From Escherichia coli (GTDB taxonomy: Bacteria > Pseudomonadota > Gammaproteobacteria > Enterobacterales > Enterobacteriaceae), in assembly GCF_045037415.1 (NCBI RefSeq), contig NZ_CP173438.1: DNA of 64,000 nucleotides; one strand, 5' to 3'. A program made the translations under genes and the position numbers. Of this stretch, positions 3,330 through 3,565 are shown piece by piece. The notes under the pieces were generated by a model. The model was not told where the DNA came from and searched no databases. It saw only the letters and a program-made list of their open reading frames with translations. The number at the start of each line of letters is the position of its first letter. The first letter of the stretch is position 1.

Positions 3330-3380
3330 TTAGTTCCCCGTCCTGAATCTTGAGAAACAGAATTTTGTGCTGTTATTCAT
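3330..3380 (-). CDS. ilvX: small ORF between ilvL and ilvG (16 codons, [16 protein letters not shown])
   Basis: Minus-strand ATG at 3380 to TAA at 3332-3330; position matches the annotated ilvX small protein; no other support. Confidence 0.35.
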
Positions 3381-3410
3381 TGTCTGCTCCTCAGTTATGT
3401 TTTTAAGGTC

Positions 3411-3445
3411 AAAAAAAACCCCCGGACCTTTCGGTGCGGGGGTCT
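3411..3445 (-). terminator. ilvGMEDA attenuator (leader terminator hairpin plus U-run)
   Basis: On the minus strand a GC-rich hairpin CCCCGCACC-GAAA-GGTCCGGGG followed by T8, immediately after the ilvL stop. Confidence 0.75.
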
Positions 3446-3466
3446 TAGTTCGTTAAGGCTTGATCT

Positions 3467-3565
3467 CTAAGCCTTTCCTCGTCCAAGTGCAGCCCCGCAT
3501 GGTGGGATAATAATCACCACCACGCTAATCACGACCAGGCTAATCACTCGTAGAAGGGCTGTCAT
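3467..3565 (-). CDS. ilvL: ilvGMEDA operon leader peptide (32 aa, Ile/Val/Leu-rich)
   Basis: Minus-strand translation from ATG 3565 gives MTALLRVISLVVISVVVIIIPPCGAALGRGKA then TAG. Confidence 0.88.
   Translation of the reverse strand: MTALLRVISLVVISVVVIIIPPCGAALGRGKA

What the first reader, a model, noticed from the sequence alone, without database searches (positions are those of the whole stretch)
3330..3565. Intact ilv attenuator: leader peptide, terminator hairpin and a tiny ORF before ilvG
The ilvL leader (3565..3467) encodes 32 residues of which about half are Ile/Val/Leu. A strong hairpin plus T8 (3445..3411) follows, and then a 16-codon ORF (3380..3330, [16 protein letters not shown]) ends 3 nt before the ilvG ATG. 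The leader and terminator are classical. The small ORF matches the position of ilvX, but its coding status rests only on position and an ATG.
Basis: partly seen in the sequence, partly recalled or inferred. Interest (0 to 1): 0.2.

Follow-up and report, generated by a model that had tools for sequence, protein, structure and literature searches.

The report
Classical ilv attenuator plus known ilvX ORF
This is the textbook E. coli ilvL leader-peptide attenuator followed by the already annotated 16-codon gene ilvX just before ilvG; it is ordinary, though comparison across species suggests ilvX is kept as an open, precisely placed reading frame and not as a conserved peptide.

Summary
These are ilvL (3565..3467, 32 aa, 15 Ile/Val/Leu), a -21.6 kcal/mol terminator hairpin with T8 (3446..3411), a 16-codon ORF (3380..3330, [16 protein letters not shown]) and the ilvG ATG at 3327, two bases after the ORF's stop.

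All of this is known. 5,425 of 5,426 complete E. coli genomes carry the region, and RefSeq annotates ilvL, "peptide IlvX" and ilvG there. IlvL matches Pfam PF08046 and NCBIfam NF007744. Rfam RF02744 covers the leader.

Constrained folding reproduces the attenuation switch. The antiterminator (UGCGGGG:CCCCGCA) forms only when a ribosome is placed on leader codons 10, 16 or 18.

I compared 78 distinct ilvX regions from genomes and metagenomes:
- The start, the 16-codon length and the stop position are kept in all of them.
- The frame has no stop codons, although about 293 substitutions were inferred in it.
- Amino-acid change is near neutral (omega about 0.8 to 1.0).
- Codons 4-8 are frozen even at synonymous sites.

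ilvX is therefore a real, maintained ORF. It probably acts in cis, by translation that ends at the ilvG start, and it overlaps nucleic-acid signals: a hairpin that pairs its Shine-Dalgarno (SD) sequence and an Lrp-box-like dyad. Both of those signals are unproven. Interest is low.

The parts
3467..3565 (-). ilvL, the ilv operon leader peptide CDS (32 codons plus stop)
   Evidence: ORF list. Pfam PF08046 at 61.5 bits and NCBIfam NF007744 at 81.9 bits. RefSeq annotates it on identical DNA.
3506..3556 (-). Regulatory codon run: leader codons 4-20, holding 14 of the 15 Ile/Val/Leu codons
   Evidence: Read directly from the translation. Placing a ribosome on codon 10, 16 or 18 switches the nascent fold to the antiterminator.
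3492..3559 (-). Protector pairings that hold UGCGGGG when the leader is not stalled: 3525-3517 with 3505-3497, and 3559-3555 with 3496-3492
   Evidence: Minimum-free-energy fold of the leader with no ribosome, or with a ribosome at the stop codon.
3435..3499 (-). Antiterminator: UGCGGGG 3499-3493 pairs with CCCCGCA 3441-3435, and CUUGG 3487-3483 pairs with CUAAG 3448-3444
   Evidence: Constrained fold of nascent RNA ending at 3429. It forms with a ribosome footprint on codon 10, 16 or 18, and does not form with no ribosome or with a footprint on codon 13, 20 or 33. Duplex energy is -14.5 kcal/mol.
3411..3446 (-). Intrinsic terminator: GC-rich hairpin followed by U8 (T8 at 3418..3411)
   Evidence: -21.6 kcal/mol. 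The core CCGCACCGAAAGG..GGGGGTTTT recurs in 132 related loci.
3387..3392 (-). ilvX Shine-Dalgarno GAGGAG, 6 nt upstream of the ATG
   Evidence: Read from the sequence. A purine-rich GGAG/GGAA motif sits at this position in nearly all rows of alignment A1: G13 is invariant and A12, G14 and A15 are at least 90% conserved.
3351..3393 (-). Predicted hairpin pairing the ilvX SD (3393-3383) with ilvX codons 7-10 (3361-3351); 11 bp with a 21-nt loop that holds the ATG
   Evidence: Minimum-free-energy fold. 83% of cells are paired in register against 50-60% in slid registers, but there is no covariation. Local fold z averages -2.3, and the SD is paired in 77 of 78 sequences. Status: predicted, not proven.
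3330..3380 (-). ilvX, a 16-codon ORF ([16 protein letters not shown]) plus TAA
   Evidence: RefSeq 'peptide IlvX'. The frame is conserved in 78 distinct relatives, with no in-frame stop after about 293 inferred substitutions.
3357..3372 (-). Core conserved at the nucleotide level, YAGCAYAAAATTCTGY (here CAGCACAAAATTCTGT), covering ilvX codons 3-8; a dyad that resembles an Lrp box
   Evidence: Third-position diversity is 0 to 0.17 in codons 4-8, against a mean of 0.47 in ilvG. It matches the Lrp consensus with 2 mismatches here and with 1 or fewer in 50 of 78 relatives. Its function is not shown.
3336..3339 (-). ilvG Shine-Dalgarno (GGGG), inside ilvX codons 14-15
   Evidence: Read from the sequence. 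G65 and G66 are invariant in alignment A1, and the motif is GGGG or GGAG in all classes.
1681..3327 (-). ilvG, acetolactate synthase II catalytic subunit, intact at 548 aa
   Evidence: ORF list. NCBIfam NF006524 scores 1074 bits against a cutoff of 738.

Best explanation
The interval is the leader of the E. coli ilvLXGMEDA operon.

(1) Attenuation by ilvL.
- RNA polymerase transcribes ilvL, and a ribosome translates its 15 Ile/Val/Leu codons.
- When charged tRNAs for these amino acids are plentiful, the ribosome runs to the stop. The segment UGCGGGG stays held by upstream pairings, the GC hairpin plus U8 forms, and transcription ends at about 3411.
- When any of the three amino acids is short, the ribosome stalls in codons ~10-18. 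UGCGGGG then pairs with the 5' arm of the terminator (CCCCGCA), and polymerase reads on.

(2) ilvX.
- Read-through RNA carries ilvX, a 16-codon ORF with a strong SD. Its stop lies 2 nt before the ilvG ATG, and its last codons contain the ilvG SD.
- ilvX is a real translated ORF.
- Selection keeps it open, 16 codons long and ending at the ilvG start, but hardly constrains its amino acids.
- The most likely role is therefore in cis: its translation delivers or keeps ribosomes at the ilvG start (termination-reinitiation) and covers the leader RNA. A trans-acting peptide is less likely.

Status of each step.
- Shown here: the anatomy, family membership, the in-silico structural switch, and conservation of the frame.
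- Taken from the literature: attenuation in vivo and detection of IlvX.
- Inferred: the cis-acting role of ilvX.

Confidence is about 0.97 for the identity of the elements and about 0.5 for the cis-acting role.
For: Identity.
- 5,425 of 5,426 E. coli genomes carry the region, annotated as ilvL, ilvX and ilvG.
- Family matches: PF08046, NF007744 and NF006524, and Rfam RF02744.

Switch.
- The terminator folds at -21.6 kcal/mol.
- The antiterminator appears with a ribosome footprint on codon 10, 16 or 18, and not with no ribosome or a footprint on codon 13, 20 or 33.

ilvX is real.
- PMC9299463 describes it as encoding a small peptide (Hemm 2008, 2010) and used an ilvX translational fusion.
- Among 68 distinct ilvX sequences, the start is ATG in 64 and GTG in 4. 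The stop is TAA in 50, TAG in 7 and TGA in 5. In 6 it is TCA, and the frame then runs two more codons to the TGA that overlaps the ilvG ATGA.
- There are no indels in the ORF, while the spacer upstream varies by up to 19 nt.
- The ilvX frame has 0 stops, against 123 and 76 in the other two frames.
- Column shuffling gives on average 7 sequences with a stop, and none of 2,000 shuffles was stop-free.
- A tree-based simulation of the 293 inferred substitutions gives on average 21 of 65 leaves with a stop, and none of 1,000 runs was stop-free.

Cis-acting rather than peptide.
- Event-based omega is 0.80 overall and 0.99 in codons 2, 3, 11-13 and 16.
- Pairwise pN/pS is 0.60, against 0.06 for ilvG.
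- The stop-to-ATG spacer is 2 nt in 77 of 78 sequences, although its bases vary (CT, CG, CC, GC, TG, AG).
- The conserved residues coincide with nucleic-acid signals: the core, the anti-SD arm and the ilvG SD.
Against: - No experiment here shows coupling.
- The ilvG SD and AUG are predicted to be moderately accessible on their own (mean unpaired probability about 0.45), so ilvG need not depend on ilvX.
- The ilvX SD is predicted to be mostly paired (unpaired probability 0.00 in E. coli, median 0.23). That argues for limited translation of ilvX.
- Cys8 and Gly15 are invariant, Ser4 is kept in 63 of 68 sequences, and Ser10 uses all four TCN codons. These could reflect some peptide-level selection.
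- The metagenome sequences carry no organism names and are phylogenetically related, so the counts are not independent.
- Morganellaceae lack the ORF (Photorhabdus and Providencia, named loci; three unnamed metagenome contigs with the same terminator variant as Photorhabdus also lack it), so it is dispensable in some lineages.
Confidence: 0.9

Rival explanations
1. IlvX is a functional small protein acting in trans, for example on an enzyme or transporter of branched-chain amino acid metabolism. On this view the ORF is conserved because the peptide matters.
For: A core pattern S-[I/T]-K-F-C-[F/C]-S recurs. Cys8 and Gly15 are invariant, and Ser10 uses all four TCN codons. Pairwise pN/pS is 0.60 in frame, against 1.30 and 0.97 in the other frames. 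RefSeq and the literature name it as a peptide.
Against: Six of the 15 codons after the start evolve neutrally (omega 0.99). In core codons 4-8, synonymous changes are suppressed as much as non-synonymous ones (1.5 against 2.0 events per site, compared with about 11.7 elsewhere). Ile is always the rare codon ATA and Lys is always AAA, which points to nucleotide-level constraint rather than amino-acid constraint. Every conserved residue overlaps a plausible nucleic-acid signal. A 16-residue peptide with a variable half leaves little surface for a specific interaction.
Confidence: 0.2
2. The ORF is incidental. The region is conserved only for non-coding reasons (a protein-binding dyad, an RNA hairpin, the ilvG ribosome-binding site), and the open frame is a by-product with no function in translation.
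For: Strong nucleotide-level conservation of YAGCAYAAAATTCTGY. Photorhabdus keeps this core (CAGAACAAAATTTTG) although it has lost the start codon and carries an in-frame TAA. Amino-acid evolution is near neutral.
Against: Most substitutions fall in unconstrained codons, yet none of about 293 inferred events created a stop, whereas simulations give about a third of the leaves a stop. The stop switches among TAA, TAG and TGA at one fixed position. Start codon and SD are kept in all 78 sequences. The ORF has no indels although the adjacent spacer is indel-rich. Published work used an ilvX translational fusion.
Confidence: 0.07
3. An added layer, not exclusive of the best explanation. The 16-nt dyad inside ilvX is an Lrp operator on DNA. 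The SD-pairing hairpin gates ilvX translation, and with it ilvG translation, after the attenuator.
For: The core matches the published Lrp consensus yAGhAwATTwTdCTr (quoted in PMC5554404) with 2 mismatches here and with 1 or fewer in 50 of 78 relatives. It matches AGAATwwwATTCT with 1 or fewer mismatches in 46 of 78, including one perfect match. It is the best Lrp-like site in the 421-bp regulatory region. [quoted passage not shown] Hairpin: local fold z averages -2.3, and the SD is paired in 77 of 78 minimum-free-energy folds, using different registers in different clades.
Against: A 2-mismatch Lrp match occurs by chance 4 to 9 times per 64 kb. I could not read the 1996 paper, so the footprint positions are unknown. 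The hairpin shows no compensatory changes, RNAalifold does not predict it, and the 111-nt segment as a whole is not unusually stable (z = -0.43).
Confidence: 0.3

Closest known systems
ilvGMEDA (ilvLXGMEDA) leader-attenuator of E. coli K-12 (Lawther & Hatfield 1980; Nargang et al. 1980, as cited in PMC6123439 and PMC9299463)
   Same: Same locus and same elements: a 32-aa leader with 15 branched-chain residues, a terminator, and the position before ilvG. The ilvX-to-ilvG-start stretch differs from K-12 MG1655 by 1 base in 79.
   Different: ilvG is intact here (548 aa), whereas K-12 strains carry a frameshift in ilvG (stated in PMC9299463). So the leader here drives a complete operon.
IlvX, 16-aa small protein of E. 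coli (Hemm et al. 2008, 2010, cited in PMC9299463; RefSeq WP_001387183.1)
   Same: Same 16-codon ORF, annotated as 'peptide IlvX' on DNA identical to the window.
   Different: Nothing differs. What this analysis adds is how the ORF evolves: the frame is kept while the peptide is largely free.
Rfam RF02744 Rev39_5p_UTR (Pectobacterium atrosepticum rev_39, '5' UTR: ilvG', PMC4710047)
   Same: Matches 3636..3347 over the full model at 152.9 bits (gathering score 88). It covers ilvL, the terminator and the first 11 codons of ilvX.
   Different: The family is named as a soft-rot 5' UTR or sRNA candidate. In content it is the ilv attenuator, and its single consensus structure shows only the terminated form.
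Other amino-acid leader-peptide attenuators (trpL, hisL, leuL, thrL, ivbL)
   Same: Same logic: a short ORF rich in the regulatory codons, alternative hairpins, and an intrinsic terminator (described generally in PMC6123439).
   Different: Control here is multivalent (Ile, Val and Leu together). A second small ORF, ilvX, lies between the terminator and the first structural gene.
Upstream ORFs translationally coupled to the next gene, such as uof-fur in E. coli (from my own knowledge; not checked here)
   Same: A short ORF with its own SD ends at or next to the start codon of the downstream gene, and the downstream SD lies inside the upstream ORF.
   Different: Coupling of ilvX to ilvG has not been demonstrated. 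The ilvG ribosome-binding site is predicted to be fairly accessible by itself.

Membership tests
Leader-peptide transcription attenuator (ilvGMEDA type) | Short leader ORF enriched in codons for the regulating amino acids | tested here: met
   32 codons with 15 Ile/Val/Leu. PF08046 at 61.5 bits (cutoff 25) and the NF007744 equivalog at 81.9 bits (cutoff 59).
Leader-peptide transcription attenuator (ilvGMEDA type) | Intrinsic terminator between the leader ORF and the first structural gene | tested here: met
   GC hairpin plus U8 at 3446..3411, -21.6 kcal/mol.
Leader-peptide transcription attenuator (ilvGMEDA type) | Antiterminator that excludes the terminator and is freed by a ribosome stalled on the regulatory codons | tested here: met
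   In silico only. UGCGGGG 3499-3493 pairs with CCCCGCA 3441-3435 in nascent RNA with a footprint on codon 10, 16 or 18. It does not form with no ribosome or with a footprint on codon 13, 20 or 33.
Leader-peptide transcription attenuator (ilvGMEDA type) | Read-through rises in vivo when Ile, Val or Leu is limiting | not testable with these tools
   Known for the K-12 locus from the literature (reviewed in PMC6123439).
IlvX small protein | 16-codon ORF between the ilv attenuator and ilvG, with the sequence [16 protein letters not shown] | tested here: met
   ORF at 3380..3330. DNA identical to the window in NZ_CP023844.1 is annotated ilvX, WP_001387183.1.
IlvX small protein | Reading frame conserved in related genomes | tested here: met
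   78 of 78 distinct sequences with the homologous region keep the start, the 16 codons and the stop position. Named hosts include E. albertii, Citrobacter, Superficieibacter, Enterobacter and Acerihabitans. The ORF is absent in Photorhabdus and Providencia.
IlvX small protein | The product is made in cells | not testable with these tools
   Literature only: Hemm 2008 and 2010 as cited, and the ilvX translational fusion in PMC9299463. The Hemm papers are not held.
IlvX small protein | Match to a curated protein family model | not tested
   At 16 aa it is below the minimum query length of the family, homology and cluster tools.
Rfam RF02744 Rev39_5p_UTR | Covariance-model score above the gathering threshold | tested here: met
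   152.9 bits against 88, model positions 1-300, window 3636..3347.
Lrp operator | Match to the Lrp consensus | tested here: inconclusive
   13 of 15 positions match here, and 14 or more of 15 match in 50 of 78 relatives. Matches of this quality occur by chance 4 to 9 times per 64 kb.
Lrp operator | Lrp binds the site | not testable with these tools
   Only the title of Rhee et al. 1996 could be seen, and the paper is not held.
Translationally coupled upstream ORF | The upstream stop lies at or next to the downstream start, and the downstream SD lies inside the upstream ORF | tested here: met
   The spacer is 2 nt in 77 of 78 sequences and 1 nt in one. An ATGA overlap results when the first stop is lost. 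The ilvG SD lies in ilvX codons 14-15.
Translationally coupled upstream ORF | Downstream translation depends on upstream translation | not testable with these tools
   Predicted accessibility of the ilvG ribosome-binding site (about 0.45) neither requires nor excludes coupling.

The most novel reading that the evidence does not exclude
ilvX is not kept for its peptide. It is a positional, cis-acting ORF whose translation must end at the ilvG start. It overlaps two undescribed signals: a hairpin that pairs its own SD with codons 7-10, and a 16-nt dyad (YAGCAYAAAATTCTGY) that may be an Lrp operator. Together these would form a second control layer, downstream of the attenuator, on the first enzyme of the classical ilv operon. 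A similar SD-preceded ORF that ends in an ATGA overlap with ilvG in three Vibrio species would make this arrangement older than Enterobacterales.
Probability: 0.3. Interest if true: 0.35.

Novelty: already known. Interest (0 to 1): 0.12.

Why it matters
As a finding it matters little. The ilv attenuator is a textbook case, and ilvX has been annotated since 2008.

Its modest value is methodological. ilvX is a clear example of a very small annotated 'protein' whose conservation pattern points to selection on the act and position of translation, and on overlapping nucleic-acid signals, not on the peptide. The pattern is an open frame with fixed length and stop position, near-neutral amino-acid change, and synonymous sites frozen in part of the ORF.

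If confirmed, this would caution against reading frame conservation of tiny ORFs as evidence for a functional peptide. It would also add a post-attenuator step to a much-engineered operon used for valine and isoleucine production.

Tried and rejected
The exact-sequence contig look-up did work for IlvL.
- Papers not held: Hemm 2008 and 2010, Lawther & Hatfield 1980, Lawther 1987, Rhee 1996 and Weaver 2019. No ribosome-profiling table for ilvX could be reached.
The metagenome scan with the terminator motif supplied the diversity, but without organism names.
- The simple terminator scan missed the real terminator.
- An RNA-structure explanation for the ilvX core could not be proven. There is no covariation, RNAalifold gives a consensus energy of -1.4 kcal/mol, and the 111-nt segment has z = -0.43. 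Only the local 49-nt fold is unusually stable.
- Strict structural coupling, with the ilvG start buried until ilvX is translated, is not supported. A 5-bp AUUCA:UGAAU pairing seen in E. coli is not conserved, and the ilvG ribosome-binding site is about 45% unpaired.
- GcvB control of ilvX was considered. RIL-seq enrichment was reported, but the ilvX fusion did not respond to GcvB.
- I compared the core with the IHF consensus by eye and dropped the idea.
- I did not pin down the promoter. The scan found only a weak TTGAGA-16-AAAAAT site at 3677..3650.
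Full report
**Observation.** All the described features lie on the minus strand.
- ilvL runs 3565..3467 and encodes MTALLRVISLVVISVVVIIIPPCGAALGRGKA. It has 4 Leu, 6 Val and 5 Ile, so 15 of 32 residues are branched-chain.
- A GC-rich hairpin follows, with stems 3446-3437/3424-3415 and 3435-3433/3428-3426, and then T8 at 3418..3411. Folded alone it gives -21.6 kcal/mol.
- The 201-nt leader folds at -73.6 kcal/mol, with z = -5.1 against dinucleotide shuffles.
- The 16-codon ORF runs 3380..3330 ([19 protein letters not shown] at 3332..3330).
- Two bases (CT) separate its stop from the ilvG ATG at 3327. ilvG is intact at 548 aa.
- The simple terminator scan missed the hairpin, apparently because of a 1x1 internal loop.

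**Identity.**
- A 451-base query across the region finds at least 95% identity in 5,425 of 5,426 complete E. coli genomes. RefSeq annotates ilvL, 'ilvX: peptide IlvX' and ilvG under the match.
- A record identical to the window over that query lists ilvX as WP_001387183.1.
- A 79-base query over ilvX alone again finds 5,425 genomes. Every sampled row annotates ilvX, including K-12 MG1655, which differs by 1 base in 79.
- IlvL scores 61.5 bits against Pfam PF08046 and 81.9 bits against the NCBIfam equivalog NF007744. IlvG scores 1074 bits against NF006524, acetolactate synthase 2 catalytic subunit.
- Rfam RF02744 (Rev39_5p_UTR) matches 3636..3347 at 152.9 bits, above its gathering score of 88. 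Its source paper lists rev_39 as '5' UTR: ilvG' in Pectobacterium. That family is therefore the ilv attenuator under another name.

**Literature.**
- PMC6123439 summarises the 32-aa, 15-branched-chain leader and the attenuation model.
[quoted passage not shown] It reports that an ilvX translational fusion was not changed by GcvB, whereas ilvL is a GcvB target. It also notes the K-12 ilvG frameshift.
- The primary Hemm, Lawther and Rhee papers are not held.

**Attenuator mechanism, checked in silico.**
- At equilibrium the terminator always wins. I therefore folded the nascent RNA up to 3429, before the 3' arm of the terminator exists, with a 30-nt ribosome footprint placed on different codons.
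- With no ribosome, or with a ribosome at the stop codon, UGCGGGG (3499-3493) is held by upstream pairings (3525-3517 with 3505-3497, and 3559-3555 with 3496-3492). The 5' arm of the terminator is then free.
- With the footprint on codon 10, 16 or 18, the GCGGGG core of that segment (the full UGCGGGG at codons 16 and 18) pairs with CCCCGC(A) (3441-3435), and CUUGG (3487-3483) pairs with CUAAG (3448-3444). This sequesters the 5' arm of the terminator.
- With the footprint on codon 13 or codon 20 the antiterminator did not form in the minimum-free-energy fold.
- Apart from those two positions, this is the classical switch. The leader peptide itself is almost invariant across the relatives examined.

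**Comparative data for ilvX.**
It gave nine Enterobacterales loci plus more distant Gammaproteobacteria and other bacteria.
- A metagenome scan with the terminator motif gave 120 loci. An exact look-up of IlvL gave 10 more.
- 132 loci have both the terminator and an ilvG start, giving 94 distinct terminator-to-ilvG regions.
- 81 of those regions, with IlvG N-terminal identity of 85-100%, carry the homologous ORF. They reduce to 78 distinct sequences from the SD to the ilvG start, and to 68 distinct 51-mers.
- Named hosts are E. albertii, Citrobacter werkmanii, Superficieibacter electus, two Enterobacter species and Acerihabitans arboris.
- The ORF is absent in two Photorhabdus species, in Providencia, and in three unnamed metagenome contigs that share the Photorhabdus terminator variant. 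It is also absent outside Enterobacterales.

**Is the ORF maintained? Yes.**
- The start is ATG in 64 and GTG in 4 of the 68 distinct sequences.
- The codon-17 stop is TAA in 50, TAG in 7 and TGA in 5. In 6 it is TCA, and the frame then runs two more codons to the TGA that overlaps the ilvG ATGA.
- There is no indel inside the ORF, while the spacer upstream makes total lengths range from 114 to 133 nt.
- The stop-to-ATG spacer is 2 nt in 77 of 78 sequences, although its bases vary.
- The ilvX frame has no stops, against 123 and 76 in the other two frames.
- Shuffling alignment columns gives on average 7 sequences with an in-frame stop, and none of 2,000 shuffles was stop-free.
- On a neighbour-joining tree built from 450 nt of ilvG (65 taxa), parsimony infers 293 substitutions in the 48 nt. 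Re-placing the same number of events per branch gives on average 21 leaves with a stop, and none of 1,000 runs was stop-free.
- Caveat: the tree is approximate and the sequences are related. The margin is nevertheless large.

**Is the peptide conserved? Barely.**
- Pairwise pN/pS is 0.60 in frame, against 1.30 and 0.97 in the shifted frames and 0.06 for ilvG codons 2-61.
- Counting events, 71 are synonymous and 222 non-synonymous. Over codons 2-16 (71 and 220 events) this gives omega 0.80 overall, 0.99 for codons 2, 3, 11-13 and 16, and 0.53 for the core codons.
- Mean column entropy is 0.59, 0.86 and 0.87 at codon positions 1, 2 and 3. This is not the usual coding pattern.
- In codons 4-8, both synonymous (1.5 per site) and non-synonymous (2.0 per site) events are suppressed relative to the variable codons (about 11.7 per site).
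- Third-position diversity there is 0.17, 0, 0.03, 0 and 0.11. The ilvG mean is 0.47, and only 5% of ilvG codons are at or below 0.1.
- Ile5 is always the rare codon ATA and Lys6 is always AAA.
- The constraint in this stretch is therefore on nucleotides: the motif YAGCAYAAAATTCTGY at 3372..3357.
- Photorhabdus keeps this core although it has lost the ORF.

**What overlaps ilvX?**

(a) The ilvG SD (GGGG or GGAG) lies in codons 14-15.

(b) A hairpin pairs the ilvX SD region (3393-3383) with codons 7-10 (3361-3351).
- It is 11 bp in E. coli.
- Across 78 sequences, 83% of cells pair in register, against 50-60% in slid registers. There is no compensatory change, and shuffles do as well. RNAalifold does not predict it.
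- Local 49-nt folds average -11.4 kcal/mol with mean z = -2.3. The SD is paired in 77 of 78 minimum-free-energy folds. Inspecting the printed sequences and folds, the clades appear to use different pairing registers to do so.
- The ilvX SD is the least accessible element (median unpaired probability 0.23, and 0.00 in E. coli). The ilvG SD and AUG are about 0.45.

(c) The core is a dyad that resembles an Lrp box.
- Against yAGhAwATTwTdCTr (consensus quoted in PMC5554404) it has 2 mismatches here, at 3358..3372, and 1 or fewer in 50 of 78 relatives.
- Against AGAATwwwATTCT it has 2 mismatches here and 1 or fewer in 46 of 78, including one perfect match.
- It is the best such site in the 421-bp regulatory region.
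- Matches with 2 mismatches arise by chance 4 to 9 times per 64 kb.
- A 1996 paper is titled as describing Lrp-DNA interactions in the ilvGMEDA leader region, but I could not read it.
- This remains a lead, not a result.

**Interpretation.** The attenuator is classical. The pattern is: frame, length and stop position fixed; amino acids nearly free; conserved residues coinciding with nucleic-acid signals. This favours a cis role for ilvX translation, in which ribosomes terminate at the ilvG start (termination-reinitiation) and cover the leader RNA. A trans-acting peptide is less likely. I put the cis role at about 0.5. The ilvG ribosome-binding site looks usable on its own, the ilvX SD looks partly closed, and some lineages do without the ORF.

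**Verdict.** Already known and of low interest. The comparative result on how ilvX evolves, and the two overlapping candidate signals, are the only points that go beyond annotation.

Noticed in passing
window 1681..3327 (-): ilvG is intact (548 aa, 1074 bits against NF006524), unlike the frameshifted K-12 allele. The window therefore comes from a non-K-12 E. coli. The 451 bases searched (3250..3700) are 100% identical to strain 4/1-1, NZ_CP023844.1.
   Followed up: partly
window 3347..3636 (-): Rfam RF02744, 'Soft rot Enterobacteriaceae Rev 39 5'UTR', is in content the ilvL leader-attenuator plus the start of ilvX. The family name hides this, and its consensus structure shows only the terminated fold.
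   Followed up: yes
L013 (Vibrio gelatinilyticus), L014 (V. hannami) and L016 (V. bivalvicida), the ~70 nt before ilvG at locus position 1501: All three Vibrio loci have an SD-preceded ORF of 15-20 codons (MCNRT..., MCSNK..., MTCNTT...) whose TGA overlaps the ilvG ATG as ATGA. None of 17 other non-Enterobacterales gammaproteobacterial loci has one. This may be an analogue of ilvX, but three loci are too few to judge.
   Followed up: partly
L007 and L010 (Photorhabdus), ~60 nt before ilvG: The ilvX start codon is gone and an in-frame TAA is present, yet the core CAGAACAAAATTTTGTCTC is retained. This suggests the core has a role that does not depend on ilvX translation.
   Followed up: partly
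window ~3487 and ~3481 (-), inside ilvL: Term-seq tables of PMC7815308 list K-12 RNA 3' ends at 3950400 and 3950406. These lie inside ilvL, 107 and 101 nt upstream of ilvX, and are scored as not Rho-dependent. They are not at the U8 tract. They may be ends trimmed back to the stable leader hairpins.
   Followed up: no
L207, L003, L088, L118 and L141; L097 and L209: Annotation of ilvX is uneven. In L207, the one GTG-start locus for which a gene table was returned, ilvX is not called at all. In the class with ATGATG (L097, L209) it is called as 17 aa from the upstream ATG.
   Followed up: partly
window 3562..3582 (-): A 6-codon mini-ORF (ATG CAA GAA AAG ACA AAA TGA, MQEKTK) overlaps the ilvL start codon (AATGA). 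In several relatives the same upstream ATG is in frame with ilvL and gives a 38-40-aa leader (for example MQKELKMTALL...). It has no obvious SD and is probably not meaningful.
   Followed up: no
window 3611..3647: Several weak (4-mismatch) matches to the Lrp consensus cluster around the presumed promoter region. The regulatory region has 10 matches with 4 or fewer mismatches, against 3.3 expected from the window-wide rate. The region is AT-rich, so this is weak evidence.
   Followed up: partly
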